DNA of 63,312 bases, the filler included, from Collodictyon triciliatum (Eukaryota): NCBI GenBank assembly GCA_043381765.1. It is 5 parts of 5 records of this genome, joined end to end, with 100 filler letters (N's around TTAATTAATTAA, not from the genome) between each part and the next. Parts side by side here need not be neighbours in the genome. Positions count along the whole stretch, not along the records: positions 1 to 15,310 come from JBHJMP010001690.1; 4 more parts are not named here. One strand, 5' to 3'. The position numbers were made by a program, and so were the translations under genes. The notes beneath the pieces were generated by a model, which ran no database searches, was not told the origin of the DNA, and worked only from the letters and a program-made list of their open reading frames with translations. Below, piece after piece: positions 4,229-63,312 of the stretch (its first letter is position 1; each line of letters opens with the position of its first letter).

Positions 4229-5409
4229 GTGTGCTTCGTAGGCCTGAGCGTCGGTCATTGTGAGTTGAAGAAAGAAAGAAAAAAAGAAAAAGAAAAAGAA
4301 AAAGAGAGGCAACACAAACGAAAAAAGAACGAAAGTGGGTGGCGTTTGCTGCTCGTTCCGACGTGTGGGAAACAATCTTCTCTCTCTCTCTTTCTGCCGA
4401 TTCCTTGGCACATAGGAAACAGCGCCTGACTCGACTGAGAATAAATAGAAAGCGCTAACTAGAGACAAACACAGCCGAACGCACGGAAAGTCGACTGCTC
4501 TGCTCGATCAAAGGTTTCCAGCCCCACTGATCAGACGATCAAAGAGCGCCAAGAAAAACAATATTGTACGGGAACGGCCGCAGCATCCGCCTTGAAGGAA
4601 AGGTGCAAGCTGCTTCAGGACTACGACTTGGATCGCAGACAAGCGAATGAAGAAGCCGCCAAAGTTATACAACAACGCGGCAGTCGCAACGAAAACGTCA
4701 CCGTCTTGTAAGCTTTGCGATCAAACTCGAAAAAGGAATGCACAGATTCTTTCCCACAAAAGCAAACGTCAGCGAAGCGTGCCAAAGCAGGAGAGTTTAA
4801 ACTGTTTGACCACTTTTTTCGCCCAGCAAGTAAGGTTCGCTTCTTTGCTGTGCGATCTGCTATAACGTCTGTCCAGGCCCACCGCGAATAACATCGATGA
4901 GGCGCGGAAAAAAGAGAAAAAGAAAAGCTTTTATCGTTTCTCACAGCTTCCGTTGTCGCTTAAACGGGTTAAGAACAAAGACAGTTTAGTTGAGTCTCCA
5001 GCATCAGAACCGCCCAAAGTACGATTGCATATCAACAAACAAGGCTTCTGCCGATCTGCTGTAATCCGCCCCGAAGGTTAGCAAGAGGAAAAACAAGGCA
5101 GCAGCCGTGGCAAACACCACCACAAATACTCGAAGGCTGAGCAGTCGAGTAGGGAAAGACAAGGTCAACCCAAGTTCAATCGTCAAAAGCTGTGGAGGAG
5201 GTAGAACATATCAACTAGCCCACCCATCGCCACTTAACCAAGAAGCCACTCTCAAGAGCTCTCCAGGGAGAATATGCAAGTTATTAGAAATGTTCAGCAC
5301 CCAAGAGCAATATTAACAATTCATCCAAGGAAAAGTCATGTGGGTTGGGGTCGATGATAACTTTTTTCATTCAAAATGTAAGTTACAATATACTGGGCGG
5401 TACTATCCT

Positions 5410-5411
<2 letters not shown>

Positions 5412-5480
<69 letters not shown>
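5412..5480. repeat. (CAA)n microsatellite
   Basis: About 22 perfect CAA units. Confidence 0.95.
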
Positions 5481-5481
<1 letters not shown>

Positions 5482-6296
5482 CCCTCCGCCCCCGCCCCCA
5501 AGAATTCCGAACGAAACCACTTTTAATGATAATAGCCTTGTTTTGGTCAGGAGCATACAAAAAGGTTATCAGATGTTGAATGACGAATGAGCAAATTAAG
5601 CCGGAAAGCATGTGCGAAAATAGCTTGATATTTCAATTGCCAAATTACGCACAAACAAAAAAAAACTCCGTGTTTTCCAACCCATTTATAATTGGTAGGT
5701 GGTGTTACATGAGTACTGGCATTGCAATTTTATTTAGTTTGTGAATTTGACATTCTGTGGGAACAAACTAACCATCACATATAGTTTGTGTCATTTGCAC
5801 AATTTAGAATAGATTTAAAGGAATAATATAACCATCGACCAGGAAGAATATCGATCTATCATGCAGAGATTTGCATACATCACATTTCTTGTATTATACA
5901 AAATATTTAGCATTAAGAGAATGTTTAGTGGCTGTATGATGCATAAGGAAATCACATCCATATTATTTACAAATCAAAAAAGCAGTTAAAAAAGAATTCA
6001 TCTCATATTGAGACATATTTATATTCACGAATAGTTTATTTCATAACGAAGAAAAATAAAAAAATATCCAGAGTTAATTATATTGAACTTTGAACAGTAG
6101 TACAGTATAACCTTGCTAGCCTATAGAAACTATCCAAAATGCATTCAAAATAAATATTGATAAATCAAGCAATATCCATTCATGAAAAAGTAGGATAGCT
6201 TATTTTACATTGAGTTGATTGTAAATGGCACATATTGTAACTGATTAATACGATGTTTTTATGCAACACACACGAAGGAATAGGAAGATTCGAAAC

Positions 6297-9200
6297 ATGT
6301 CTGCAACCGAAACAAGCACCGAGGCCAACGCCAGCCTTATCACCATCGACGAAGTCTGCAGAATTACATACATATCATTTCATCAAAAATTATATATATA
6401 TCAAAGAGGATTGATTGCTTACGCCAACAACTGAGCACAGGCTGTCCTCGAATGGGTGAACCACCACCTGGGAAAAATCGAGCTCAAGGCGACGAACATC
6501 CGCGATGATTTTATGGACGGGTTCTTTTTGGCCATGCTAATTGATGCGGTCACCGGAAAGTCCTTGGGAAGCTACCATTCGCGCTTGTTTGCGTATGATT
6601 TATTAATTGTATCCAAATCATTTATTCTTCTCATGGATTAGTATTTAATCCCTGTATTTATATCAGTGACAAAGCTATTGAGGAGGAAGTTCTTGTTAAC
6701 GAGAATCAGAAACTCATTGTTGATTGGTTTCTGACATTGAACGTGCGTTATGAGGCTGTTGCTTCTAAGGCCCATTACGCCGGTTTGCCTTATTTACTTT
6801 AAAGGGAATTGTTTGAAATCTTTCATATATCACTCATTTATTTTGTATGATTGACATATACCTATCTTACAGATTTGGTCTACACAATTCTCCAGTATCT
6901 AATTGGATTAAGTGTTGGCCATTTGGGAAGTCTTGGGGTAACAAAAAAACCTAATTTTTAAAATTTTCATTTTGATTTATATTTCGAACCATGTTGAAAT
7001 ATAATTTCTAATCATTAAATTGTAGAAAAAATGTCGTGAGAGGTACGATATTGCCAAGAAGCTCTACGAAAGAGTGAAGGCTCCGTTTCCTTTTCATGGT
7101 TGAAATTCGATTTATCTTATATTTTTATGATTATTCGATATATTTTTTGTTTTATCAATTTTTCAACTAAATTAAATTTAAATATTGATGCAGGTCTTGG
7201 TCTGGAAGAAAAAGGCTCTGTCGTACTAACCCGTACTTGCATTCTTCTTGACAAGGTTATCCATGAATTAATTTAAAAATAATTAAAAAATTTTACCTAA
7301 ATCCTTCCGATATGTGAAATATAATCGTGTATTTAAACCAGATGAAGCTTGCTCGTGAAGACCTGAAAGAGAGGCGATACAAGAAGTGGAATCCGGCTCC
7401 ACAAAGATACGTGACACCAACACCATTGCCGCTCATTGTCTTTGACGAGCGTGTCATCCGTGTTTTCCTTTCCTCGACTTTCCGTGACATGCAGCAAGAA
7501 AGAGACGAATTCTTCAGGAATGGAGCTCCAGAGTAAGTTCAATTCAATCCAATTAATAAATAAATCCATGATGAGGAATTATAATTTGATGCATTTATAT
7601 TACCAACAGTATTATCATTATGTCAGGTTGAAAAGACTTGCGAAATCGAAGGGATTAGACCTTGTCTTTATCGATTTGCGCTGGGGACTGACTTCTGAGG
7701 ACAGTAGTGAGGGATGGGTAAATACTATATTATTAACTCGTTATTTTTATGATAATTTTAAGAATATGCTGCATTATATAAAAGAATAAACTTCAATTTT
7801 CTCTTATTGCTTTCAAAGGTTGTGATTCGTTGTCTGGACTCTATCGGAAAATGCCCATACTTTGTGTGCTCTCTCGGTGCGCGCTACGGCTGGATTCCTG
7901 ACCAAAACAAAACGGAGCTGAATAAGCAAGCCCGCCTTGAGGAGCTGCTGAATACCAAGCCCGATGCCACCATGAAGGATATTTGGGTGGAATGGCGCAG
8001 TGAAACCAATAGCCGCTTTCCATTCATTGACGGAATGCCTGAGCTGAGTGTGACTGAATACGAGGTGAAGCTAATAATAGCGTGTATTCTGTATCTTCTC
8101 GTGAATAATTACAGTAGAAAAATAAACAAATTATTCTCTTAATCAAATATACATGTTCAGATTCAGTATGCCTGTCTGATTGACAAACCAGCATGCAGCC
8201 GCGCCTTCTTTTACCTCCGCGATGAGCACTATGCTGTCCAACATGCCAAGAGCGAGGAAGAAAGAAAGCTGTTCCAGGCTGAAAGCGAAGAGGCGGTAAA
8301 AATTGATAGAAAGTCTTTGTTTTTATTTTCAAGTTATTATTATATGATTATTTAATGATTCGATTTTTTGACACTTGTTTTAATGTATTTCTTTTAGCGT
8401 AAGAGGCAGGAGGAGCTCAAAGGGAAAGTCAAGGCCAAGTTCGGGCATGTTGTGTACAAAGGAGCGAAAGAGTATTCGGACTTTGTGACATACCATCTCT
8501 CCTACGCCATCGAGCGTGACTTTGGGAATCAAACTGTATTTTTTTTTGTAATTTTTGTGGATTTATGGATTTATGGATATATATTTCATTTCATTTGTTG
8601 ACATAACTGTATCCTAGGTGAGAGACCCTGAAGACCAAGCGCAGCACCAGTTCAAGATGCATCGACTGGCTGGGTTTGGCGGAAGAAAGGAGCTTCTCAA
8701 GATAATCACGGAGCAAGTAAGACGAAAAATAATGGAATTAAAATGACAACAATATCCTTTGATTTTTTCTTTTCTTATCAATAAATTATTTTTATCAGTC
8801 CATGAGTCAGCTGAGCATGGAGAAATCCAAAATCATCGTTCTTGCTGCCGAGTCTGGGATTGGAAAGTCATCGCTCATGGCTGCTACAGCGAGAGACCTC
8901 GAAGGGCTGAAGCATCCTGGGCTGCATATCTTTTTCCATTTTGTCGGATGCACCAACCTCAGCAACTACATGGAAAGGTTATTTATATTTCTTTTTGTTT
9001 TTATAAGTATAAAGATATTTTATTGTGTTTCTAAAAAAATACTTGTTTTATTTTAGTATTTCTATTCGCTTCTGGAATCTGGTCACAAACTCTGCCAACT
9101 TTGTCGAGGAAAAGAAGCAGGAAGCTGGTATTACAGCATTTCATTTTTATTTTTATCTTTTAATTCAAATGTCGTATAATTATTCAAGCATTCATCTTAT

Positions 9201-12200
9201 TTTGCCACCAGAATACGAAAAAGAGGGACTGCACGGCCTACTGAAAATTATTCAGGAGAAAACCATGTAATTCTTCAATTTTTATGACTGTTTTCATGAT
9301 TAAATCAAAATTAAAATGCTTTGAATCGAATAAAAAATTGATATTAATATTAAATTATATATTTTAGGGACGAGAAGTTTGTCTTTCTCATCGATGCCAT
9401 CAACCAAATCCACCCGTCGCAAGGAACGCCAGCTCCGCATTTGCTGACCTGGTTGCCCAAAGAAACGCCACCTAATGTTGCCATGGTTGTGTCGACCATT
9501 CATACCCATGAATCTTGCACGGTATTTAGTAATATTTTTTTGGGATATGTTTGTATTCTGCATAAAAATGATTTGAGTGGAAGGTTAATTAATGTTTCTC
9601 TGTCATAAGTCTGCCAAGAAAAGCGGACTGGAGCCGATTCCCATCGCCAAGTTGACTGAGGGTGAAGTTAAGTATGGAGTCGAATCATTCCTCATCCGCT
9701 ATGACAAGACCCTGAACGAAAAGCAAGTTGAAATGATTCTGACTGACTTGAAAGATACTGGTGAGACATTTTTAAAAGAGTATATATTTTGATTAAATTT
9801 TATAAGGAATAATTTAGTTTAGTTACTAATTATCTGATATTCATTATAGGCCATCCGCTCTATCTCCGCATCATTCTGGATGAAGTTAGGGTGTTTGGTG
9901 TCTATGAGAAGCTCGATGAAGAACTGTTTGCCCTGCTTTCGACCAATGGTGTCATTGAGCTTTACACTCTGATTATTAAGCGCTGGCAACTGAAGTTTGA
10001 CAGGAAAGGTGAGTATTGGTTGCATGTTTCACAAAAAAAAAATTCAAATTATAATTGCTACTTTTGTTGAATGAATCTTTTTTTTATTACAGTTTCATCA
10101 ACCGATGGAAAAAAGACAATACATGTCGAGTATGTCTCCCTCTCGATGAAGGTTCTTTTTGTCTCCCGCATTGGCCTGAGTGAAGGTGATTTGGATAAGT
10201 ACATGAAAGACGCGATTGGCACAGGATTCGAGCTTGCTGAATGGTTTTCTTACTCTTGAATTTTAATAGAATCAATATGTTTACCCATTTCTTTTCTTTT
10301 GATTTTACTTATCTTTTATTCATTCAAATAGGAAATCCTTCTTCTTTACCCTCATCGAGTCGCTTTTCGTCCGCAATGGAAGGTTGGTCTTATTTTTAAA
10401 TCCTTTCGTTCGTTAATTTGTGCTTTCGTAATAATTTTATTTTGATAATCTTAATCATTGTTTATTATAGATACATGTACTTCCACCAGCTGCTGTTTGA
10501 GACCACCGAAAAGGTCTACTTATCCGAAAAGAAAGAGATGGAAAAAACGCACGAAAAGTACGGAAAATGGCTGTTTGGCCAATATTTTGAGGTTGTTGAC
10601 GCGGATGAGGAGCTTGTTGCTGAGATATGCTACCAGCTTCTGAAGGGCAGTTCGTTTGACTTACTTGTCGAATACATGAAGCAAAAACATGTAATTTTTA
10701 TCTTTAATTCGAGTATTCTATACATAATGAAACGATTTCAATGATTATTTTTTTTTATAATTTATAGGTTATCAGTGTCATGCTTGGTGGTCGCTATCGC
10801 TACGAGTTCTTTACATGCTGGAGAGCAATCAACGCAAGTGGGGCGGCAAACTACAAAGAAGCTTATGGGAGCTTGGCGAAGGTTTAATTGATTATTTTCT
10901 TTTAATTTTTGAATGTTACTACTCACAAAATATAATTATCAATCATGATTTACCTTTTAATTTTTCAGTCTTTGGATAAAGTGGGAGACCTGCTCGTTGG
11001 ATTTTTCTTGGAGTCTTTTGAGAACTCGTTTCTGTTGTCTGTTCTGAATGTGCGCCTTGGACAACATCAAACAGAAGGTGTGGAATTCAATTTTCGTTTA
11101 TTGAGTAATATTTTAAGGGAAATTATGGATTCAATTTATTTACAATATTTCTTAATCTAAGACTCAAAGGCTGTTGATTATCTGAATCTTGGTCGTGTGT
11201 ACAAGAACCTCCAAAAGTAAAAACACGGTCGATGAATAAAGTTAATTAAGACATGATAACAATAAAATGCAAAATTTCTTACATATAAAATTAAACAGCT
11301 GGTCTGAATCCATGGTCTATTACAAGAGATGTCTTGATTCAGTTGAGAAGAATACCGATAATTCCCGGCGTATCGCCACCATTCATGAAGAAATGGGAAT
11401 CATCTACCAGCAACAGGATAAGTAAGGCTCGCTTTCAACTTTTAAAAAAAGTATATTATTGTGTTTCAAAAAATAGATGTTCTTATTTGCTTATTAAATA
11501 GAATTGATGAAGCTCTTGATGAATACGAGAAATCACTGGAATTGAGAACCAAACTGATGGGTGAGAACAACTTGCAAGTGGCCCAATCGCACGACCGCTT
11601 CGGAGACATCTATGTAAAGCAGTCAAAGTAATATTATTTCATCGTATTCCTTATCTTCTGCTTTTATTTTGTAAAAATACATATATGCTGATCCAATCTT
11701 TATGATAGGAATGAGAAAGCTCTGGCTGAATACATAAAGGCCATGGAAATCCGCCAAAAGAAAGTCGGAAACGAGCATCCACTAGTCGCAACATCGTACC
11801 AGAACTATGGCCATGTCTCTCTGGCTGGGAAAAAGTAGCATATTCATTCGATTTAAGACAGTTTTATATAGGGTTATTTATTTTTGAGAAATATTAAAAT
11901 GATTGAATCATCAAGGTATGAAGAGTCTGTTGAAAACTACGAAAAGGCAAAATCAATCCTTGAAAAATCGTTGGGAGCCAAGCATGCATCTGTTGCCTCG
12001 ACAATCCAGTTTATTGCAAACGTTCATCTTGCCCGTGGAATGTTCGAATTTCTAATTTTTAGATGTTTGCATACAACAATTTTTCCTTTCTTTCAATTTT
12101 TTCAAGATGAGTGTGGTTTCATATCTTTCATTTGTATGGACTCTATTTGGGAGCTGTGATTTTCGCATAATATAACTAATTTTAATTATCAAATAACTTT

Positions 12201-14990
12201 TGTCTTATATAGGAAAACGGAGGCCTTATCGTCATTAAAGCAATCGCTGGATATTTTCATGTCTGCCCTGGGTGAAAATCATCCGAATGTTGTGGCCTGC
12301 AATGAGATGATTGGAGATATCAGCCATGATTTGAAGATGTATCTCTTTTTCATATATATATTGAATTGAAACAAAAATATATTTACTCGCTCATATTATC
12401 TTAGTTTTAAGGGTGCTCTGGAGGCGTATACAAAGGCGCTGGATATTCGCATGAGAACACTGGGTGAAAAGCATGCTGATTATGCGACTGCCCTTGAAAA
12501 TGTTGGCAGAACAAACTTTGAGCTTCAAAGGTGCATTTACATATTTATTAAAAAATCAAATTATTAAATTGAATATTGTAAAAAACAAACTACTCAATAC
12601 TAAATTTTAAATCAAGGTTGGACCAAGTCATTGAATACTTCCAGAAGGCTGCTATTATCAGGAAGGAGACAAATACTATAATGTCACTGAAAGATGGCCC
12701 GCAAATTGATAATGTTATCCGACTCATGAAGGATAAAAAGGAGCATGAAGCTGCCATTCAGCTTTACATTACGCTGATTCATCTATTCAGTAGACTTTTC
12801 GTCTTGGATTATCTTGGAATATGGAGCAGCTGTGAGAAAATCGATAACATTTACAAGGAACTGAAGCAACATAATGAAGCAGTGCCGTTCTGGGCTGATA
12901 TGAAAGATAGATTCGCTGATAAACTCGGATGGATTCACCCCAGAACATTGAACTCGTGCGAATACTTGTCCGTCCATTCAAAAGAAATCGGGGTCAACAA
13001 AGAGCCTGTCGAGTTTACAAGAGTCAAGGAATTCATCAGTGAAACTCTTGATGATGCAAAACTGGATGAAGAATGGAATCGTGAGCAAATCATCGCATCA
13101 TTATTCAGAATTGTCTACATGTCAAAGAAACATGAAAGCAAATCAAAGGCTGCATCTGATGCAATCACACTTTTGAATTTCATGAATGTTTTGTTTGGTG
13201 GAATGGATTTATCAAACATCAAAATTCCACATGCAAATCTCAGTAACTCAATCCTTGATGGTGCAAACCTCACTGGTGCCGACTTGGATGGTGTTGATTT
13301 CACGAATTCGATGCTTGGTGATTGCATTTTTGATAATGCAAATATGAATAATGTGAAATTCGGAATTCCTCATTATAAACTAGAAGGACATACAAATGAA
13401 GTCTGGAATGTTTGCGGTATTCAAGGGCCGAATGGCGAAAACTGGTTGGCTTCTGGAAGCAATGATAATACAATTTGTATTTGGGATGTAGCCACAGGGA
13501 ACCAACTGAGAATATTAGATGGGCATACAAGCGATGTCTGGAGTATCTGCAGTATTCAAGGACTGAATGGTGAAAACTGGTTGGCTTCTGGAGGCTGGGA
13601 TAAAACAATACGTATTTGGGATGTAGCCACAGGGAACCAACTGAGAATATTGGAAGAACATGCAACTGATATCTGGAGTGTTTGCCGTATTCAAGGACCG
13701 AATGGTGAAAATTGGTTGGCTTCTGGAGGTGGCGACAACACAATACGTATTTGGGATGTGGCCACAGGAAACCAAATCAAAACATTGAAAGGACATATGG
13801 GTGTTGTCAATAGCATTTGCAGTATTCAAGGGCCGAATGGCGAGAATTGGCTGGCTTCTGGAAGTGGTGATAAAACAATAAGTGTTTGGGATGTATCCAC
13901 AGGAAACCAAATTAAAATATTAAAAGGGCATGTCAAAGATGTCATTAGTATTTGCAGTCTTCAAGGACCGAATGGCGAAAATTGGTTGGCTTCTGGAAGT
14001 GGTGATAAAACAATACGTGTTTGGGATGTAGTTTCAGGAAATCTAATCAAAATATTCGAAGGGCATACAAATGATGTTATGAGTGTCTGTAGCATTCAAG
14101 GACCGAATGGTGAAAAGTGGCTGGCTTCTGGAAGTAATGATAAAACAATATGTATTTGGGATGCAACCACTGGAAACCAAATTAAAACTTTAGAAGGTCA
14201 TGAAAAACCAGTCATGAATGTTGGTATTATTAAAGGATCGAATGGTGAACATTGGCTGGCTTCTGGGAGTGAAGATAATAAAATACGTCTTTGGGATATG
14301 GCCACAAATACCCTAATCAAAACGTTAGAAAGACATATAGAGCGTATCACTAGTGTTTGTAGTATTCAAGGACCGAATGGTGAAAATTGGTTGGCTTCTG
14401 GAAGTGATGCTAAAACGATACGTATCTGGGATGTAGCCACAGGAAACCAAACACACAGCCTGCAAAAATCGGAAGTTACATTCGATGAGAAGAAACATTT
14501 GGTAAAGAAAGAAAATCCAGATGAAATAATTGCAGTATTCAACAGAACAAGTGATGCGATGAACATGATTGATACCAACAGAGTCCAAGATGCAAGAACA
14601 GTCCAGATTTCCAGCCCAGGAGAGTTGGAAGGCGGAAACATCCAAATCAGAAATGTCGCAAGATTGAGTCAATTCAACAAAACCCTTCTATTTTCAATCG
14701 GTGCTGTTTCTTTCGATGCGGACTTTGCTGCCTATTGTGAGCAGGGTGAAATCACAGCGTTTCAAGCTCAAATAATGGCTGAGTGCTATGAGAATGGATG
14801 GGGTGTTGAGAAGGACAGCGATAAATCAGCTGAGTGGAGGCAGATTGCAGAGAACTTTGAAAATGATAATGATAGTGATGAAGAATACGAAGACGAACAC
14901 GAGGATGGAGATGGAAATGAAGATGGAAATGACGATGGAGATGACGATGGAGATGACGATGGAGATGACGATGGAGATGATCTGATCTGA
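6297..14990 (+). CDS. NLR/STAND-like protein: calponin-homology-like - DUF4062 - NACHT/NPHP3-like P-loop NTPase - TPR repeats - pentapeptide repeats - 8x WD40 - single Sel1-like motif - acidic tail
   Basis: ATG at 6297. CH-like segment AVLEWVNHHL..NIRDDFMDGFFLAMLIDAVTG. DUF4062 segment IRVFLSSTFRDMQQERD..FIDLRWGL..PYFVCSLGARYGWIP. Walker A AESGIGKSS (about 8847-8873), Walker B FVFLIDAINQ (about 9378-9407) and GHPLYLRIILDEVRVFG. TPR exons span 11299-12530. The terminal exon 12617-14990 is the 790-aa ORF, joined in phase 2. Confidence 0.88.
13380..14459 (+). repeat. Eight tandem 135-nt (45-aa) highly similar WD40 repeats
   Basis: Consensus L.GH...V.S(V/I)CSIQGPNGENWLASGS.DKTIRIWDVATGNQIK.; exact 135-nt period from 13380 to 14459. 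Confidence 0.97.
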
Positions 14991-15187
14991 ATTAATACGA
15001 AAATCGCATCTTAAAAAGGTAAGAAATATCAATAAACTCACAAAAATTATATGCTTTCAACTATAATCATTTTAGATAGATACTTCATGAAGTTTTTCAA
15101 GCTGATAAGATCGCTTTTTCTAGGAGAGGTTCATGGAAACAAAATTAACTCTAAATAAAACCACACCTTATCAAAGTGGATTTGAAA

Positions 15188-15310
15188 TCTTCTTTTCTTA
15201 TCTTCTTTTCTTATCTTCTTTTCTTATCTTCTTTTCTTATCTTCTTTTCTTATCTTCTTTTCTTATCTTCTTTTCTTATCTTCTTTTCTTATCTTCTTTT
15301 CTTATCTTCT
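15188..15310. repeat. 13-mer tandem repeat (TCTTCTTTTCTTA)n abutting an assembly spacer
   Basis: About 9 direct copies. Confidence 0.9.
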
Positions 15311-15410
15311 NNNNNNNNNNNNNNNNNNNNNNNNNNNNNNNNNNNNNNNNNNNNTTAATTAATTAANNNNNNNNNNNNNNNNNNNNNNNNNNNNNNNNNN
15401 NNNNNNNNNN
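15311..15410. other. Artificial assembly spacer (44 N + TTAATTAATTAA + 44 N)
   Basis: The identical 100-nt structure recurs at 28152-28251, 37634-37733 and 60447-60546; the core has stop codons in all six frames. Confidence 0.97.
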
Positions 15411-51586: not shown

Positions 51587-56875
<5,289 letters not shown>

Positions 56876-57448: not shown

Positions 57449-60058
57449 TCACATGGACACTAGCTTGCGCAAGGCGTCGTCATCGCCCTGGTCGCAGGCG
57501 CGCAGATACCAGTGGGCAGCGGCGGAGGCAGAGACGGGGACGTCGTGGCCGGCCGCGTGGGCCTCGCCGAGGGCGCGCTGGGAAGGGAGATACCCGTTTG
57601 TGGCGGCCATGAGGCACCAGCGCAGCGACTCGCGGGCGGACTCGACCGTCCAGCGGTTGCGGTAGCAGACATGGAGGTTGCTCTGCGCGACGACGCTGCC
57701 CTGCTCGGCGGCCTTGTGGAACCAGCGGATGCCCTCGCCGACGTTGCGCTCCGTGCCCTGGCCGCGCGCGTAGTAGAAGCCGAGGGTGGACTGGGCGGAC
57801 GCGTAGCCCTGCTCGGCAGACCGCAGATACCAGCGGAAGGCCTCCTCCATGTTCTGCTCCACGCCGTGCCCGTTGCCGTAGCACATCCCGAGGTTGCACT
57901 GCGCGTACATGTAGCCCTTCTCAGCCGCGCGCCGGTACCACTCGAAGGACTTGGCCTGGTCCTTGGGCACGCCCACGCCGTTCCAGTACATGTTGCCGAT
58001 GCTGTTTTGCGCGTGCAGGTTCTGCTGCTGCGCCGCGCGCATGTACCAGTCGAACGCCTGCGCGTAGTCCTGCCCGACGCCCCGCCCGTGCTCGTACGAG
58101 TACGCAAGATTGTCCTGCGCGCTGGCGTTGCCCTTCTCCGCCGCCGTCCGGAACCAGTGCACCGCCTGCGCGTAGTCCTGCCCGACGCCCCGCCCGTTCT
58201 CGAAGCACAGCCCCACGTTGTTCTGCGCGCTCGCGTTGCCCTTCTCCGCCGCGCGCATGTAGTGCGCAAACGCCTGCCCGTAGTCCTGCCCGACGCCCCG
58301 CCCGTGCTCGAAGCAGATCCCCACGTTGTTGAGCGCGTAGATGCTCCCGTTCTCTGCCGCGCGCATGTACCACCCAAACGCCTGCGCATAGTCCTGCCCG
58401 ACGCCGTTGCCCTTCTCGTAGCAGATCCCCAGGTTGTTTTGCGCGTACGAGCTCCCTTGCTCCGCGGCCTTGCGGTACCAGTGGATGGCCTGCGCGTAGT
58501 CCTGCCCAACGCCTCGTCCGTGCTCGAAGCATGACCCCAGGTTGTTTTGCCCATCCTCGTTGCCTTGCTCCGCGGCCTTGAGATACCACTGAGCCGCCTG
58601 TGCGTAGTCCTGCCCAACGCCCCGCCCGTTCTCGTAGCAGATCCCCACGTTGTAGTACGCACTCGTGTTCTCCTGCAGCGCAGCCTTCAGGAACCAGTGG
58701 AAGCCTTGCTCATAGTCCAGCTCCACCCCGACCCCGTTGTAGTAGCACGTCCCGAGATAGTTTTGCGCGTTGGCGCTGCCTTTGACCACCGCGCGCCGGT
58801 ACCACAGGATGGCCTGCTTGTCGTCCTTGGGCACGCCTTGGCCCTTTTCGTAGCACAGTCCCAGATTGCTCTGCGCGTACGGATCTTGCGCGTCGGCCGC
58901 CTGCCGGTACCAGTAGATGGCCTGCGACAGATCCTGCGGCGTGCCTTCGCCCTTCTCGTAGCAGATCGCAAGGTTGTTTTGTGCAGTGATGTGTCCTTTC
59001 TTTGCCGCCCGGGTGAAAAAATCAAACGCCTTGCCGTAGTTGCGCGCCACTCCTTGTCCGTTCCAGTAGCAGATACCAATCGTGCGCTCCGCATAGATGT
59101 TCCCCAAGTGTGCGGACACAAGATAGAACCGGGCCGCATCCGCATGCTTCTCCTCCAGCAGGTCCAGCAGATAGCCGGTGAGAAAGTGGCATTGAATCGC
59201 CATTTGGTCTTCCAGGCTCCCTTCTGCATCAGAGCCCGGTACTGTGCCTGAAGAGCTACCCTGCAAAGTGTCGCTTTTAGTCGTGTGAGACTCCTTTTCT
59301 AGTCTGGCAGGCTTTCCAGGCAGCGGACGAGCGTCATATCCGGCCTGCACATTCGATAATGTCTGGCCTGGTGGCTCGTCACTGGTTGGCCGTGCAGCCA
59401 CTGGGGCTGAAGAGTCGAGATTTTCCTTGGCAGAGAAGCAAACTAGTGGTGTCTGCAATGAGTCTGACGCAAGCTTTGTCTTGGCCTTCGCAAGTCGCGG
59501 CGATTGGGCCAAGGGCGATTCCTGCTGCAGACGAAAGCCCGACTCTGCATCCCCCTCAACAGCAGCAGACGGTACAGAGGCTTCATCATCATGATCATCA
59601 CCTATGTTTGCTGCGTCGTTGCTTGCAAGAGTCTCGTCCTCAGAAGGCGGCTCCACTTGGGTCTTTGGCGTGTTTTCTACTGTGTGCTCGGGCCCCAACT
59701 CAGCAGCAACCTCGGCCAGCAGCGTCCCAGAAAGAAGCTCCGGACGCAGAGGAAACTTTGCACAGAGCTTTGCGAGGGCATTGCGTGAGCGGACCAGTGC
59801 GTGGGCCGAGCAGGAGCGCGCTTTGTTGTACTGCTCGTCTACAAGATCTTTTTCTCGCGGGTGGTCGATCAGGGCCGGGCGGTAAAAGTAGATTGCGCGC
59901 AGGCAAAGCATGGCCACCACAAAGTCCGGCTCCAGGCTCAGCAGCGTCTCGAGATCCTTGTGGGCCTCCTCCGCGCGATACTGCGACATGCAAAGCACCG
60001 CGGATTCGAGCAGTGCGGTGATTCGTGGATCGGGCGCTGCGGAGGCTTTGCTGTCCAT
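57449..60058 (-). CDS. Intronless Sel1-like repeat protein (869 aa, about 15 SLRs) with an N-terminal TPR-like segment
   Basis: Uninterrupted ORF. 36-aa units AQNNLG.CYE.G.GV.QDY.QA..WY..AAEQG begin at 59092. Confidence 0.95.
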   Translation of the reverse strand: MDSKASAAPDPRITALLESAVLCMSQYRAEEAHKDLETLLSLEPDFVVAMLCLRAIYFYRPALIDHPREKDLVDEQYNKARSCSAHALVRSRNALAKLCAKFPLRPELLSGTLLAEVAAELGPEHTVENTPKTQVEPPSEDETLASNDAANIGDDHDDEASVPSAAVEGDAESGFRLQQESPLAQSPRLAKAKTKLASDSLQTPLVCFSAKENLDSSAPVAARPTSDEPPGQTLSNVQAGYDARPLPGKPARLEKESHTTKSDTLQGSSSGTVPGSDAEGSLEDQMAIQCHFLTGYLLDLLEEKHADAARFYLVSAHLGNIYAERTIGICYWNGQGVARNYGKAFDFFTRAAKKGHITAQNNLAICYEKGEGTPQDLSQAIYWYRQAADAQDPYAQSNLGLCYEKGQGVPKDDKQAILWYRRAVVKGSANAQNYLGTCYYNGVGVELDYEQGFHWFLKAALQENTSAYYNVGICYENGRGVGQDYAQAAQWYLKAAEQGNEDGQNNLGSCFEHGRGVGQDYAQAIHWYRKAAEQGSSYAQNNLGICYEKGNGVGQDYAQAFGWYMRAAENGSIYALNNVGICFEHGRGVGQDYGQAFAHYMRAAEKGNASAQNNVGLCFENGRGVGQDYAQAVHWFRTAAEKGNASAQDNLAYSYEHGRGVGQDYAQAFDWYMRAAQQQNLHAQNSIGNMYWNGVGVPKDQAKSFEWYRRAAEKGYMYAQCNLGMCYGNGHGVEQNMEEAFRWYLRSAEQGYASAQSTLGFYYARGQGTERNVGEGIRWFHKAAEQGSVVAQSNLHVCYRNRWTVESARESLRWCLMAATNGYLPSQRALGEAHAAGHDVPVSASAAAHWYLRACDQGDDDALRKLVSM

Positions 60059-60387
60059 GTTTTCCCTCGCCGGTGGGTTTCCTTGGTCGTGGGTCTGCGA
60101 TCGTATTTGTTCCTTGGTGGCTGTGCGGTTTTCTGTTTGCGTTTCAATTTGTCTTCCTCTACGTTGTTGTTGTTATTTTTTTTGTGGTTTTTTTGTGGTT
60201 TTTTTGGTTTTTTTGGTTTTTTTTCCTTTATTCGATTCAAAGTGTAGCGTTTGTTTTATGTTTTATGTTTGTTGTTTTATGTTTTATGTTTGTTGTTTGT
60301 TGTTTGTTGTTTGTTGTTTGTTGTTTTTTGTTTGTTGTTTTTTGTTTTTTTGTTTTTTTGTTTTTTTTATTTTTTTTTTGTTTTTTT

Positions 60388-61187: not shown

Positions 61188-62942
61188 CTACGAGCGCGGG
61201 AGGGACGGGGCGGAGAGGGAGGGGCGGGGCGGGGAGTTTGCGAGGAGGGCGTCGCGTGCGCGTGCGAGTGCGCGGATGTCGAAGGGGGTGAGGTCGGGCA
61301 GGGCGCGGGGCGGGAGGGCGGGGTCTGCGAGGTCGAGGTCGAGGAAGTCCTTGCCGGAGAGCCTGTGGTGGAGGAGGAGGGCGGTGGTGCGGTCGGAGAG
61401 GTGCATGTAGAAGAGGAGGGCGCGCAGCTCCTGGGGCCGCAGGGAGGCGAGGGCGGCGGGGCTGACGCGGGTGGTCATGAGGGAGTTGAGGGCCAGGTAG
61501 TCCTTGATGGAGCGGAAGACGGGCTGCTCGGCGATGAAGAGCGCCTCCACCTCGCGCAGGGCGGGGCGCGCCTTGGGGTTGTCGGCCATGCCGCGCTTGA
61601 TCATCTCCTGGATGGCCACGGGGCAGCGCGCAGGGGGCGCCCGCGACGCCTTGGCCGGCACCGCGCCGCTCAGCATCTCGCACACCAGCGCCAGCAGCGA
61701 GAAGACGTCGCTCTTTTCGCCCTGGTGCCCGCGCCGGTCGTCCAGCTCGGGGCCGTGGTAGTCGCCGTCGCCGTGGCTGTGGCTGTGGCTGTGGCTGTGG
61801 CTGTGGCCTTCGCCGTCGCTGCTCTGCTTGAGGCGGTGCAGCCCCACGTCCGTCAGCTTGCACACGCCGCGCACCACGAGGACGGTCGTTGCGCGCACGT
61901 TGCGGTGGGCCACGGGCGGGCGCTGGGCGTACATGTAGGCGAGGCCCTTGCAGATGTCCAGGCCGCAGCGCAGGGCGTCGAGCAGCGGCAGGCCCTTGAT
62001 GATGGTCTGGCGCGCAATCAGGGCCCGCAGCGTCTCGCCGGGCGCGTCCTCGCTCACCACGGCAAGGTCCGTGTCCACGATGCAGACGCCGTAGAGCTGG
62101 ACGATGTTGGGGTGCGTCAGGCGCTGCAGCTGCTGCCCCTCGTGCACCGCCGCCTCCACGTCCACCCCGGGGTCCTGCAGCCCCGCAATCGCCACGCGCC
62201 GCACGCTGACCGCCCGCTCCAGCCACGTCCCGCGCCACACGCGCCCGTTGCCGCTGCCCCCGCCGCTGCCCCCGCCGCTGCCCTCGGCCGTCAGCCGCAG
62301 ATCCGCCGCCCGCAGCTGCACGCGCTGGCCCACGCCGACCGCCCCGCCGCCCTCCGCCCCCGCGCCTGCCCCCGCATCCGCATCCCCCGCCGTCTCGTCC
62401 GTCAGGAAGCGGATCCACATGCGCAGCGCCCCGGCGTGCTCCTCGCGCGTGGTCGACGGCGGCTGCGCACGCACCAGCTCCTCCATGTGCCGCAGATCCG
62501 CCAGCCGCAGCCGTGCCGCCTCTGCGCCGTCCAGCGTCTGCCGCGCAGCCTGCAGCTCCTCGCCGAAGTGGTGCACCTGCTGCACCAGCGGACACAGCCA
62601 GTCCTCGCCGATCCCCAGCCCCACCACGCCCTCCAGCAGCGCCCCCGTCCCTGTCCCCGTCCCCGTCCCTGCTCCCGTCCCTCCTCCGCCCTCCCCGTCC
62701 GCCCCTGCCTTGGGCCCCCGGCACAGCTCCCCGATCCGCACCGCGTGCAGCAGCGTCTGGTTCAGCCGCGTCAGCGTCACCCGCACCCCCTCGTTCGTCT
62801 GCGTCCGCTGCCGCTCCAGCGCCTCCCTCAGTCCCCCCACCTGCCCCACAAGATACTTGATCTGCTGCTTCAGGAATACCGCCTGCTCGCTTGCTCGTTC
62901 CAGCTGCTCGATCAGGTCCAGTCCAAAGCTTGCAGAGTCCAT
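61188..62942 (-). CDS. Intronless TKL-type pseudokinase with an N-terminal MLKL/MCAfunc-like helical domain and a C-terminal SAM-like domain (584 aa from the ATG at 62942)
   Basis: Kinase subdomains GRVWRGTW, VSVRR, LTHPNIVQLYG, GLAYMY..PPVAHRNVRATTVLV, KLTDVGL, YHGPEL, KSDVFSL and NPKARP. The VAIK, HRD and DFG residues are substituted. The terminal domain calls are by resemblance only. Confidence 0.85.
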   Translation of the reverse strand: MDSASFGLDLIEQLERASEQAVFLKQQIKYLVGQVGGLREALERQRTQTNEGVRVTLTRLNQTLLHAVRIGELCRGPKAGADGEGGGGTGAGTGTGTGTGALLEGVVGLGIGEDWLCPLVQQVHHFGEELQAARQTLDGAEAARLRLADLRHMEELVRAQPPSTTREEHAGALRMWIRFLTDETAGDADAGAGAGAEGGGAVGVGQRVQLRAADLRLTAEGSGGGSGGGSGNGRVWRGTWLERAVSVRRVAIAGLQDPGVDVEAAVHEGQQLQRLTHPNIVQLYGVCIVDTDLAVVSEDAPGETLRALIARQTIIKGLPLLDALRCGLDICKGLAYMYAQRPPVAHRNVRATTVLVVRGVCKLTDVGLHRLKQSSDGEGHSHSHSHSHSHGDGDYHGPELDDRRGHQGEKSDVFSLLALVCEMLSGAVPAKASRAPPARCPVAIQEMIKRGMADNPKARPALREVEALFIAEQPVFRSIKDYLALNSLMTTRVSPAALASLRPQELRALLFYMHLSDRTTALLLHHRLSGKDFLDLDLADPALPPRALPDLTPFDIRALARARDALLANSPPRPSLSAPSLPRS

Positions 62943-63312
62943 CCTCCCTTCTTCCTTTTCTTTTTCTTTTCCTCCTGCAATACGATCCAAGCGAAAGAAA
63001 AGGCTGTCAAGATATTGTGTATTCAAGAACGTGGGAAAGAAAAAAGCAGTGTTTTCTCTTTTCTTTTTTTTGCTCTTCTTTCCTGCTGCTAGGACTCCTG
63101 TCGCGTGGTCTCAGCCAAGACTTGCTCACCAGGCTTCCACCACTCAAAAAGAGTAGAGGAAGGCGGTGGAGCGGGTGTCAAAGGCGCAGGAAAAAATAGC
63201 AAACAAAAAAAAAAAAAAAAAAAAGGTAGTTTTTTTTTTTAAAAAAAATAAAAAAAATTACAAAAAAAAGAAAAAAAAAAAAAAAAAAAACAAACCAGAA
63301 AAAAAAAAAAAA

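What the first reader, a model, noticed from the sequence alone, without database searches (positions are those of the whole stretch)
6297..14990. Chimeric NLR-like receptor with a CH domain, DUF4062, NACHT-like NTPase and two different sensor arrays (TPR plus pentapeptide-WD40)
Seen: an intron-dense NPHP3-like core (DUF4062 VFLSSTFRDM, Walker A AESGIGKS, Walker B FLIDA, GHPLY) with TPRs is spliced in frame (AG at 12615-12616, phase 2) to one 2.37-kb intronless exon. That exon holds LFRIVYMSK..AASDAITLLNF, pentapeptide repeats, eight WD40s and a Sel1-like motif. Established: STAND/NLR proteins usually carry one C-terminal sensor type. From recall, the 'AA.(N/D)AIT.L + pentapeptide + WD40' block is the C-terminal half of a different NACHT-WD40 family, found in Mortierella-type fungi and endosymbiotic bacteria. 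DUF4062 is a TIR/NDT-like fold. Inference: a second NLR's sensor module was captured by recombination, retroposition or HGT onto a TPR-NLR. The N-terminal CH domain could tether the receptor to the cytoskeleton as a guard. This is a candidate protist innate-immune or non-self receptor.
Basis: partly seen in the sequence, partly recalled or inferred. Interest (0 to 1): 0.85.

Follow-up and report, generated by a model that had tools for sequence, protein, structure and literature searches.

The report
Protist NLR-like gene with three repeat arrays
This is one real, intron-rich gene for a very large NLR-type switch protein that joins a likely NAD-cleaving head to three kinds of repeat arrays, and the same layout recurs in a small gene family of the freshwater protist Diphylleia, so it is an old design and not a fresh gene fusion.

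Summary
Window 6297-14990 (+) gives a clean 31-exon model of 2006 aa, with all 30 introns GT-AG. Its order is CH, DUF4062 (now called NIR, a TIR-like NADase), NACHT/NPHP3-type P-loop NTPase, 42-aa TPR units, helical linker, pentapeptide repeats, eight 45-aa WD40 repeats, and a Sel1-like tail. RNA contigs mark 17 of the 30 introns. The last junction (12530/12617) is supported only indirectly. A block of cap helix, pentapeptide repeats and WD40 placed after a STAND NTPase does occur in bacteria, mostly cyanobacteria. So the protein is a composite in architecture. The joining is old, not local. Five Diphylleia rotans transcripts at 30-49% identity carry the same TPR-linker-pentapeptide-WD40-tail order, and two of them carry the full layout from the CH domain. 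Trees of the two halves agree. The TPR array runs about 130 aa into the last exon, so the intron is not the module border. The NIR catalytic glutamate is kept as E351. The most likely function is a ligand-triggered, oligomerising NADase receptor; this is inferred, not shown. It is a new variant of a known kind, of moderate interest.

The parts
6297..14990 (+). Whole gene: 31 exons, 2006 codons plus stop. The 5' end is provisional.
   Evidence: model, GT-AG at 30 of 30 introns; RNA contig joints or loose ends at 17 of 30 introns; collinear with P0016 over model aa 18-1822, 49% identity.
6441..6937 (+). Calponin-homology (CH) domain, aa about 20-130, exons 2-4
   Evidence: Pfam CH E 4.6e-5 on exon 2 alone, below cutoff. 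The aligned part of P0016 scores 43.1 bits, E 5.2e-11.
7456..8202 (+). DUF4062 / NIR (TIR-like NADase) domain, aa about 214-365, exons 7-10. R223 is at 7483-7485, R291 at 7882-7884, and the putative catalytic E351 at 8062-8064.
   Evidence: Pfam; alignment with TEP1 orthologues, residue mapping; weak collinear hits to PDB 11gz_A, TEP1.
8799..10118 (+). P-loop STAND NTPase (NACHT / NPHP3_N type), aa about 476-740. Walker A AESGIGKS is at 8847-8870, Walker B FLIDA at 9384-9398, and GHPLY at 9760-9863.
   Evidence: NACHT, NPHP3_N and nSTAND1 near threshold; 27% identity over 710 aa with P0143, named nephrocystin-3 by its source, E 8e-65; 26% over 596 aa with a TEP1.
10119..11172 (+). Winged-helix / helical region after the NTPase, aa about 741-950
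   Evidence: No Pfam hit on its exons. It is 52-61% identical to four D. rotans relatives. The name is by position in STAND proteins, which is an inference.
11173..12530 (+). TPR_12-type array, aa about 951-1216. It includes five successive 126-nt exons (11502-11627, 11709-11834, 11916-12041, 12213-12338, 12405-12530), each flanked by phase-2 introns.
   Evidence: exon sizes, phases; TPR_12 on 5 of 5 exons, all at profile positions 19/22 to 54/59.
12531..12616 (+). Intron 30 (86 nt, GT..AG, phase 2), the junction in question
   Evidence: In one search one contig ends at 12530 and another starts at 12614. The spliced reading ...NFELQR|LDQVIEYF... aligns without a gap to the P0016 transcript.
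12617..13184 (+). First part of the last exon: degenerate TPR-like helical linker, aa 1217-1405. It ends in the cap motif LFRIVYMSK..AASDAITLLNF.
   Evidence: 3 full-length matches, all D. rotans; the rest are partial multi-stretch matches; 5 of 5 sampled partial hits are TPR_12/TPR_10 proteins; nine helices, residues 2-188 of the exon.
13185..13373 (+). Pentapeptide-repeat segment, aa about 1406-1468
   Evidence: Pfam PF00805, 43.9 bits, E 1.7e-11. The AF2 model shows one-residue strands every 5 residues at 197-250.
13377..14456 (+). Eight WD40 repeats of exactly 45 aa (135 nt), aa 1470-1829
   Evidence: WD40, 8 stretches; period 135, 7.9 copies, 79% matches; spacing 45 seven times; mean identity 77% nt, 64% aa; 32 strands, pLDDT about 90.
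14622..14873 (+). Conserved C-terminal tail with one Sel1-like helix pair, aa about 1885-1968
   Evidence: Sel1 at 17.3 bits, below cutoff. It is 36-58% identical in five D. rotans relatives. The AF2 model has helices with pLDDT 72-92.
14874..14990 (+). Acidic D/E/G-rich end with a 12-nt repeat, then the stop codon
   Evidence: period 12, 5.9 copies; pLDDT below 50.

Best explanation
The region is one gene for a 2006-aa NLR-like STAND NTPase. It belongs to a small family so far seen only in diphyllatean protists (Diphylleia rotans transcripts).

The domain order is CH, NIR (DUF4062), NACHT/NPHP3-type NTPase, winged-helix/helical region, TPR_12 array, cap helix, pentapeptide beta-helix, eight-bladed WD40 propeller, and a Sel1-like tail. 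This order was assembled before the family diversified. The most likely route was adding a bacterial-type 'cap-pentapeptide-WD40' module to a NIR-NACHT-TPR (nephrocystin-3 / TTC41-like) protein.

The likely mechanism is inferred from TEP1, NIR-bearing Avs proteins and APAF-1. At rest the C-terminal repeats hold the NTPase off. A ligand bound by the WD40 top face, the TPR groove or both allows nucleotide-dependent oligomerisation. Oligomerisation brings the N-terminal NIR domains together, and they hydrolyse NAD+. The CH domain places the receptor on, or connects it to, the cytoskeleton.

What is shown: the gene structure, the domain order, conservation across the family, and retention of the catalytic and P-loop residues. 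What is inferred: ligand sensing, oligomerisation, NADase activity and any immune role.
For: - Clean 31-exon model, with RNA contig joints or loose ends at 17 of 30 introns.
- P0016 (2619 aa) is collinear with model aa 18-1822 at 49% identity, and its tail also matches. P0140 is collinear at 39% over aa 20-1823. P0142, P0017 and P0001 cover the C-terminal parts. All are D. rotans.
- The closest outside relatives of the NIR-NTPase core are nephrocystin-3-like TPR proteins and vertebrate TEP1, at 24-28% identity and E 1e-44 to 1e-20.
- R223, R291 and E351 align with the residues that map to human TEP1 R908, R976 and E1008. The mapping rests on identical spacings (68 and 32 residues) in bat TEP1 P0160. 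The roles of these residues come from sections read.
- Walker A GKS and Walker B FLIDA are present.
- The AF2 model of the last exon has mean pLDDT 79.3. It shows nine helices, pentapeptide rungs, 32 strands making 8 blades, and a helical tail.
- Among the WD repeats, variability is concentrated in a few columns after 'GH' and before the conserved Asp.
- Bacterial STAND-cap-pentapeptide-WD40 proteins exist.
Against: - No direct read across 12530/12617 was shown to me. One search hid 57 joints.
- Two shown joints (10236/10350 and 10417/10553) do not fit my exon borders, although homology with P0016 is gap-free there.
- NACHT and NPHP3_N scores stay just below Pfam cutoffs, even on P0016.
- Walker A begins with A, not G.
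- Full-length human NWD1, NWD2 and NPHP3 showed no NADase activity in vitro; only TEP1 did. A kept glutamate therefore does not prove activity.
- TEP1 R954 has no counterpart in this protein.
- WD internal identity is 64% aa, below the 85% used for the fungal 'highly conserved' class (passages).
- The dN/dS of 1.30 at variable columns comes from columns picked after the fact.
- Tree support is low: all inner branches are below 80.
- No functional or expression data exist for this gene.
Confidence: 0.6

Rival explanations
1. Recent capture at this locus. A second NLR's sensor module, as an intronless retrocopy or a bacterial gene, landed downstream of a TPR-NLR and was spliced on. In this reading the gene would be a young chimera.
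For: - There is no intron in 2374 nt, where the upstream density (30 introns in 3647 nt of CDS) predicts 19.5. The Poisson P(0) is 3e-9.
- GC3 falls from 0.54 in exons 1-30 to 0.35 in exon 31. The RSCU correlation between the two parts is only 0.38.
- Outside the family, the best matches to the pentapeptide-WD40 part are bacterial. All 23 loci are prokaryotic by construction of that collection, and 18 are Cyanobacteriota. P0195 is 38% identical.
- The model's WD40 is more like these (37-47%) than like the WD40 of TEP1 (24-28%).
Against: - The same TPR-linker-pentapeptide-WD40-tail order occurs in five D. rotans transcripts at only 30-49% identity, two of them collinear from the CH domain.
- The ML topologies for WH+TPR and for linker+pentapeptide are identical for the five shared sequences.
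- The intron lies inside the TPR-like solenoid. The exon opens with a half TPR in the same phase as the five TPR exons before it.
- The GC3 drop sits near aa 1400, not at aa 1217, and follows a gradual 5'-to-3' decline.
- No bacterial match exceeds 47% identity.
- Near-consensus WD40 repeats resemble each other whatever their kinship.
- The absence of introns is equally explained by intra-exon tandem duplication of a 135-nt unit or by 3'-biased intron loss. Both are general knowledge and were not tested here.
Confidence: 0.07
2. It is a housekeeping scaffold, not an immune receptor. Like nephrocystin-3 (cilia), NWD1 or TEP1 (vault), it would organise a cytoskeletal or flagellar complex. The repeats would act as assembly platforms, and the NIR domain would be inactive or regulatory.
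For: - The closest named relatives are nephrocystin-3-like proteins and TEP1.
- A CH domain is present.
- Full-length NWD1, NWD2 and NPHP3 were inactive as NADases in vitro.
- WD internal conservation is moderate, and overall dN/dS among repeats is 0.44.
Against: - At least six distinct family members exist in one transcriptome, with variable repeat numbers and one TPR-only form. This looks more like an expanded receptor family than a single conserved scaffold.
- The catalytic Glu and two Arg residues are kept.
- The family is not found outside one lineage in libraries of 1.84 and 5.8 billion proteins.
- None of this is decisive.
Confidence: 0.25
3. Two genes or an artefact. The 802-codon open frame at 12582-14990 would be an independent pentapeptide-WD40 gene starting at the ATG at 12681, or the window would be a mis-assembly.
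For: - The joint 12530/12617 was not among the 15 joints shown.
- An in-frame ATG exists at 12681.
- The window has N runs elsewhere.
Against: - The spliced reading aligns gap-free with P0016 across the junction. P0016, P0140, P0142, P0017 and P0001 all run from TPR into the linker on single transcripts.
- A contig with 0 differences reaches 12614 and carries 25 further letters that are not on the intron. Another contig stops exactly at 12530.
- The first about 130 aa of the exon are TPR-like and would be a headless fragment on their own.
- There are no N runs within 6297-14990.
Confidence: 0.04

Closest known systems
Nephrocystin-3 / TTC41-type proteins (NIR/DUF4062, NACHT/NPHP3_N, TPR_12 array)
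   Same: The N-terminal NIR domain, the NTPase type and the KLC-type 42-aa TPR array are shared. P0143 (named nephrocystin-3 by JGI) aligns to model aa 208-908 at 27% identity, E 8e-65. The D. rotans paralog P0141 has exactly this TPR-only layout.
   Different: These proteins have no CH domain, no pentapeptide repeats, no WD40 propeller and no Sel1-like tail. The TPR array here is short and gives way to other repeats.
TEP1, NWD1 and NWD2 (NIR, NACHT, WD40); human TEP1 is a proven NADase
   Same: A NIR domain lies next to a NACHT NTPase, followed by WD40. The motifs SSTFRDM, DLRWG, RYG and S(V/I)TExE are shared, as are the Arg, Arg and Glu residues equivalent to R908, R976 and E1008 (papers read).
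   Different: TEP1 has TROVE and vWA parts and no TPR or pentapeptide repeats. Its WD40 is only 24-28% identical to this one. The TEP1 BB-loop Arg R954 is not matched.
Bacterial Avs2 with a NIR effector (PsAvs2), and the Swarozyc and other DUF4062 defence systems
   Same: They share the logic of an N-terminal NIR NADase effector, a central STAND NTPase and C-terminal sensing repeats (section read; abstracts).
   Different: They are prokaryotic antiphage proteins with different sensor domains. No sequence comparison with them was made here.
Cyanobacterial-type STAND (NB-ARC/NACHT), cap, pentapeptide, WD40 proteins (L019 Halomicronema MAG ORF, L006 Nostoc ORF, MAG protein P0195)
   Same: The sub-architecture is the same: a helix with 'A(A/G)(N/D).(I/F)..LL', then a short pentapeptide run, then regular WD40 repeats. 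Identity over this block is 29-47%.
   Different: In these proteins the block follows the NTPase winged-helix region directly. They have no TPR array, NIR or CH domain. Their WD units are the usual 42 aa, not 45 aa with the 'QGPNGENW' insert.
Fungal NWD / HET-E-type NLRs with highly conserved internal WD repeats
   Same: Both have an NLR-like layout with tandem WD units much alike at the DNA level and variation concentrated at a few positions (Dyrka et al. 2014, PMC4986451, passages read).
   Different: Internal identity here is 64% aa (47-78%), below the 85% criterion used there. The effector domains differ. There is no population evidence for repeat shuffling.

Membership tests
STAND / NLR-like NTPase (NACHT-NPHP3_N clade) | Walker A GK[ST] and Walker B hhhhD | tested here: met
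   AESGIGKS at 8847-8870 and FLIDA at 9384-9398. The first Walker A glycine is replaced by Ala, as it is in P0016.
STAND / NLR-like NTPase (NACHT-NPHP3_N clade) | Profile match above the curated threshold | tested here: inconclusive
   On single exons: NPHP3_N 18.6 bits (cutoff 24.8) and NACHT 15.8 (cutoff 26.7). On P0016 residues 1-1140: NACHT 25.3, nSTAND1 24.4, NPHP3_N 23.0, all just under cutoff. The spliced window protein could not be submitted.
STAND / NLR-like NTPase (NACHT-NPHP3_N clade) | Long collinear homology with accepted members, and a tripartite effector-NTPase-repeat layout | tested here: met
   Model aa 208-908 vs P0143 ('nephrocystin-3'), E 8e-65. Model aa 214-765 vs an Ambystoma TEP1, E 1e-40. 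For the layout see the parts list.
NIR / DUF4062 TIR-like NADase | Profile match to PF13271 | tested here: met
   Two exons hit profile positions 1-18 and 46-73 at 21.1 and 24.1 bits, each under the 24.7 cutoff. P0016, 71% identical over this domain, scores 42.4 bits.
NIR / DUF4062 TIR-like NADase | Catalytic glutamate (human TEP1 E1008) and active-site arginines R908 and R976 | tested here: met
   E351, R223 and R291 align with the equivalent residues of four TEP1 orthologues. The numbering was mapped by the identical spacings of 68 and 32 in P0160. The R954 equivalent is absent.
NIR / DUF4062 TIR-like NADase | NAD+ hydrolysis | not testable with these tools
   This needs an enzyme or toxicity assay. 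Full-length NWD1, NWD2 and NPHP3 were inactive in vitro.
Calponin-homology domain | Profile match to PF00307 | tested here: inconclusive
   Exon 2 alone scores 24.0 bits (cutoff 26), E 4.6e-5, over profile positions 7-49. Exons 3 and 4 give no hit on their own. The aligned P0016 segment scores 43.1 bits at 36% identity to the model.
TPR_12 (kinesin-light-chain-type) array | Repeated 42-aa units matching PF13424 | tested here: met
   All 5 of the 126-nt exons hit TPR_12 in the same register. One of the five is above the 30.1-bit cutoff by itself. P0016 scores 136.5 bits.
Pentapeptide repeat | Profile match to PF00805 and a five-residue periodic strand pattern | tested here: met
   43.9 bits against a cutoff of 20.2. 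The AF2 secondary structure shows single-residue strands every 5 residues at 197-250.
WD40 beta-propeller | Repeated WD units that fold as blades | tested here: met
   PF00400 at 229.7 bits in 8 stretches. There are 32 predicted strands with pLDDT about 90. Ring closure was not inspected.
Sel1 repeat | Profile match to PF08238 above cutoff | tested here: not met
   17.3 bits against a cutoff of 30.7, one stretch. It can only be called 'Sel1-like'.
Recently captured (HGT or retroposed) module | Close donor-like homologue, discordant trees of the two halves, and module border at the exon border | tested here: not met
   The best bacterial identity is 47%, over WD40 only. The two trees have the same topology. 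The border lies inside the TPR-like region. The compositional shift is real but not at the intron.
Fungal-type NLR repeats with high internal conservation | At least 85% aa identity among repeats (criterion quoted in PMC4986451) | tested here: not met
   Mean 64% aa identity, range 47-78%, over 28 pairs.

The most novel reading that the evidence does not exclude
In an ancestor of diphyllatean protists, a cyanobacterial-type 'cap-pentapeptide-WD40' sensor was grafted behind the TPR array of a NIR-NACHT-TPR protein. The result would be a two-input NLR: two chemically different ligand surfaces (TPR groove and WD40 top face) gate one NADase death or signalling domain. The CH domain would hold the receptor on the cytoskeleton so that it monitors a host structure. 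The family would then have expanded as a protist non-self receptor repertoire.
Probability: 0.15. Interest if true: 0.65.

Novelty: new variant of a known kind. Interest (0 to 1): 0.4.

Why it matters
In 2026 preprints NIR (DUF4062) domains were shown to be NADases in bacterial antiphage systems and in human TEP1. The same work reported that most eukaryotic NIR proteins are NLR-like, with functions largely unknown. This gene gives a concrete protist example from a deep-branching lineage. It keeps the catalytic residues and has an unusual layout of CH plus three repeat types. It belongs to a small expanded family that also contains a TPR-only form.

It therefore offers a natural comparison for asking what added sensor arrays do to an NLR, and whether NAD+-depleting NLRs act in protist immunity. 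It also shows how an apparent 'fresh chimera' in a single window can be an old, stable architecture.

Tried and rejected
- No whole genome is held for this window. A paralog survey of the genome and a check of intron positions elsewhere were therefore impossible.
- Rfam found no RNA family in the window.
- tblastn of the model against the window found no second copy outside 6200-15000.
- The metagenome-contig scan, meant to find relatives' genomic loci and test conservation of intron 30, gave no answer three times and was dropped.
- An exact look-up of two window ORFs (the Sel1 ORF, and the last exon from its first ATG) found nothing. The organism therefore stays inferred from its nearest relatives only.
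- A search for an upstream coding exon led nowhere. The N-termini of P0016 and P0140 give no credible tblastn hit upstream. The 22-letter loose end has no match in the window at up to 3 mismatches.
I read that part by eye and by BLAST instead; it is degenerate TPR.
- The Atlas feature search on the pentapeptide/WD part gave cyanobacterial and ciliate WD40 clusters at scores up to 0.93. I treat this as a lead only.
- RNA depth figures and uncovered stretches were not used as evidence.
- The dN/dS contrast (1.30 at 7 variable columns vs 0.31 elsewhere) is circular, because the columns were chosen for their variability. I do not count it as evidence of selection.
- No fold search was run on the AF2 model. 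Only its confidence and secondary structure were used.
- No fungal (Mortierella-type) relative turned up. Those searches were not designed to exclude one.
- Supplementary tables of the two NIR preprints (for example the EukProt hit list) were closed. I cannot say whether these D. rotans proteins are already listed there.

Full report
**1. What is there**

Reading stop-to-stop frames and the DNA, I placed 31 exons between 6297 and 14990 on the + strand. Joined by coordinate, they give a 6021-nt CDS and a 2006-aa protein with a single terminal stop.

**2. RNA evidence**

No whole genome is held for the window. Four coded public runs were offered and all four were laid on the region. Three of them held contigs 90-100% like the region; the fourth gave only 3 pieces. 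These contigs skip introns, so they are transcripts of this gene or of close relatives.

- Fifteen joints were shown, and 57 more were hidden.
- Ten of the 15 fall on my introns, within the stated ambiguity or 1 nt: 6592/6667, 6936/7025, 7097/7193, 7253/7340, 7532/7627, 8062/8159, 8294/8397, 8535/8618, 8717/8800 and 10690/10768.
- Two more do so with a few replaced letters: 9262/9368 and 12336/12406.
- One is a 'goes back' inside the acidic repeat.
- Two (10236/10350 and 10417/10553, with non-canonical ends) do not match my borders.
- Table 5c adds three introns: 6780/6885, 11077/11167 and 12040/12213.
- Loose ends add two more: at 6441, carrying the end of exon 1, and at 7719/7818.

That makes 17 of 30 introns. 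For the disputed intron 30 the evidence is indirect. One contig ends exactly at 12530 with 12 letters left over. Another contig, with 0 differences over 327 nt, begins at 12614 with 25 letters left over; 12614-12616 (AAG) are the same letters as the end of exon 30. The exons around the two non-matching joints read gap-free against P0016, so I keep my borders there.

**3. Domains**

The spliced protein could not be handed to the family tools, so I scanned single exons and a close relative.

Exon-level Pfam results:
- CH: E 4.6e-5.
- DUF4062: two exons, in profile order.
- NPHP3_N/NACHT at the P-loop exon: weak.
- TPR_12: on 5 of 5 126-nt exons, always at profile positions 19/22 to 54/59.
- Pentapeptide: 43.9 bits.
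- WD40: 229.7 bits in 8 stretches.
- Sel1: 17.3 bits, under its cutoff.

Residues 1-1140 of P0016 give these scores:
- CH: 43.1 bits
- DUF4062: 42.4 bits
- NACHT: 25.3 bits (just below its 26.7-bit cutoff)
- nSTAND1: 24.4 bits
- NPHP3_N: 23.0 bits

An AF2 model of the last exon, built on a 6-row alignment, has mean pLDDT 79.3 and pTM 0.52. It shows:
- nine helices at residues 2-188;
- single-residue strands every five residues at 197-250;
- 32 strands at 262-616 with pLDDT about 90, which is eight blades;
- a low-confidence stretch;
- a small helical tail at 685-752;
- a disordered acidic end.

**4. The TPR array and the last intron**

Five consecutive exons are exactly 126 nt (42 codons), each bounded by phase-2 introns. 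The last exon starts in the same phase with 'LDQVIEYFQKAAIIRKE', which continues the pattern that opens each TPR exon.

I searched the first 196 residues of the exon against 1.84 billion representatives.
- 124 proteins scored E<=1e-3.
- Only 3 covered the whole query: P0001, P0016 and P0017.
- There was also one 77-aa fragment, P0019.
- The others matched residues about 30-130 in several stretches. All 5 that I sampled from the top of that list are TPR_12/TPR_10 proteins.

So the TPR-like solenoid runs about 130 aa into the last exon. The intron is not a border between modules.

**5. Relatives**

Every protein that shares the linker comes from the EukProt transcriptome of Diphylleia rotans.

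| Protein | Length | Match to the model |
|---|---|---|
| P0016 | 2619 aa | 49% identity, collinear with aa 18-1822; tail also matches |
| P0140 | 2401 aa | 39%, aa 20-1823 |
| P0142 | 1849 aa | 41%, aa 602-1862 |
| P0017 | 1219 aa | 44%, aa 746-1958 |
| P0001 | 2520 aa | 30%, aa 990-1786, plus tail |

A sixth transcript, P0141 (2314 aa), matches aa 198-1199 at 37% and then continues as a long degenerate TPR array with no WD40.

Region by region, P0016 is the closest or near-closest and P0140 the most distant of the full-length members. ML trees for WH+TPR (aa 746-1216) and for linker+pentapeptide (aa 1217-1475) give the same arrangement of the five shared sequences: (P0140,(model,(P0017,(P0016,P0142)))). 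All inner branches have support below 80, so this is agreement without strength. I left P0001 out of the first tree and P0141 out of the second because they lack those parts.

Its best match is only 49% identical, so the gene is either a further paralog in D. rotans or a gene of a related protist.

**6. Outside the family**

The NIR-NTPase core is related at 24-28% identity (E 1e-44 to 1e-20) to two groups: proteins that their sources call nephrocystin-3 (NIR-NACHT-TPR), and vertebrate TEP1 (TROVE-NIR-NACHT-WD40). One GC-rich metagenome protein, P0153, has NIR-NACHT-WD40 and, far downstream, TPRs. So two repeat types in one NIR-STAND protein is not unique.

For the pentapeptide region, the best hits among proteins of 441-1404 aa are bacterial pentapeptide proteins that cover under half of the query. 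There is also one MAG protein, P0195, with NACHT, pentapeptide repeats and WD40 in that order. It is 38% identical to model aa 1423-1797.

A scan of prokaryote genomes returned 23 loci:
- 18 are Cyanobacteriota, 12 of them Nostoc.
- The best identity is 47%.
- 5 of the 23 matches begin before residue 60 of the query, that is, in the pentapeptide part.

I looked at 2 of the 23 loci.
- L019 is a 1198-aa ORF whose first 567 aa carry NB-ARC/NACHT. The match then starts at about aa 534.
- L006 is a 1178-aa ORF with 'GYVAGNIFNLLNQLGTNLTGYDFSGLTIWQADL...' just before its WD40. Its NTPase was not visible in the Pfam table, which WD40 families filled.

**7. Was it captured?**

In architecture, yes. The protein looks like a NIR-NACHT-TPR protein with a bacterial-type cap-pentapeptide-WD40 module added. 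Its WD40 resembles bacterial regular WD40 (37-47%) more than the WD40 of TEP1 (24-28%). Near-consensus WD repeats, however, look alike whatever their history.

At this locus and recently, no, for the reasons in sections 4 and 5.

Two oddities remain. The last exon has no intron where 19.5 are expected (P about 3e-9). GC3 falls from 0.54 to 0.35. But GC3 declines gradually along the gene, and the sharper drop is near aa 1400, at the start of the pentapeptide repeats, not at aa 1217.

The WD array is a 135-nt tandem repeat with 7.9 copies and 79% matches. Intra-exon duplication or 3'-biased intron loss would explain the missing introns equally well. I could not test either.

**8. How it probably works**

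Two 2026 preprints report DUF4062 as a TIR-like NADase.
- 10.64898/2026.09.04.749371: I read the outline and sections 5, 8 and 9, plus found passages.
- 10.64898/2026.05.01.722283: I read the outline and sections 5 and 11, plus found passages.

Their findings are as follows.
- It acts as the effector of Avs and other defence systems.
- It is active in human TEP1 through E1008, with R908 and R976 contributing.
- Most eukaryotic NIR proteins are NLR-like.
- Full-length NWD1, NWD2 and NPHP3 were inactive in vitro.

In bat TEP1 (P0160) the Arg of SSTFRDM, the Arg of RYG and the second Glu of SVTEME are spaced 68 and 32 residues apart. This is exactly the spacing of human R908, R976 and E1008. In the model these positions are R223, R291 and E351 of 'SVTEYE'. 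The TEP1 NIR crystal entry 11gz_A is weakly and collinearly hit by two exons.

With Walker A/B intact, the simplest reading is a ligand-gated, oligomerising NADase. The eight WD units differ mainly at columns 6-8 and 10 (after GH) and at columns 28-29 (before the conserved Asp). From recall, these are top-face positions of WD40 propellers. Internal identity (64% aa) is below the fungal 'highly conserved repeat' class. The role of the CH domain is unknown; a single CH domain does not by itself predict actin binding (general knowledge).

**9. Verdict**

The gene is real and the description is accurate. The 'chimeric' label is right as comparative anatomy but wrong as a recent event. It is a new variant (CH plus TPR plus pentapeptide plus WD40) of the known NIR-NLR kind.

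My literature searches for the following terms found no description of this layout:
- pentapeptide + NACHT + WD40 + TPR
- 'Diphylleia rotans' + NLR
- calponin, pentapeptide and Diphylleia within the two NIR preprints (Diphylleia was searched only in 10.64898/2026.09.04.749371)

Noticed in passing
window 57449-60172 (-): A single 907-codon open frame encodes a protein with 14 Sel1 repeats (Pfam E 9.7e-138). It lies in DNA of 57-64% G+C, far above the 35% around the NLR gene.
   Followed up: partly
window 61188-63110 (-): A 640-codon open frame with a protein kinase domain (PK_Tyr_Ser-Thr, E 1.8e-23) lies in DNA of about 70% G+C. Several long overlapping frames on both strands here reflect the high G+C.
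   Followed up: partly
whole window: Base composition is very uneven within 63 kb. Introns of the NLR gene are 22% G+C and its exons 40-47%, while other 1-kb bins reach 72%. I did not determine whether this is normal for the genome, a mark of foreign DNA, or an assembly join.
   Followed up: no
window about 15310-15410 and about 52990-53440: Runs of N are flanked by microsatellites (a 13-nt TCTT-rich repeat at 15187-15310, and AAG/CTT-type repeats). The first lies just 3' of the gene.
   Followed up: no
window 6276 and upstream: An RNA contig of a relative departs from the window before 6276. The frame stays open from 6249 to the ATG at 6297. P0016 and P0140 have 186 and 126 more N-terminal residues. 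An upstream exon is possible, but none was found.
   Followed up: partly
window 10236-10553: Two joints from one contig each in X1 and X2 (10236/10350 and 10417/10553) have non-canonical ends and do not fit my exons 19-21. They probably come from a diverged paralog, but this is not explained.
   Followed up: partly
gene CDS, aa 1-2006: GC3 falls steadily from about 0.6 in the NTPase half to 0.24-0.35 in the pentapeptide-WD part. GC at codon positions 1 and 2 stays at 0.36-0.49 throughout.
   Followed up: partly
window 5288-5590 (+): A long CAG/CAA tract gives a run of about 24 Gln in one frame, just upstream of the gene. It was not assigned to any gene.
   Followed up: no
Diphylleia rotans proteins P0016, P0001, P0141: Family members differ strongly in repeat content. 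P0016 has at least 13 of the 45-aa WD units, P0001 has a duplicated linker-like region and a very long WD part, and P0141 has only TPRs.
   Followed up: partly
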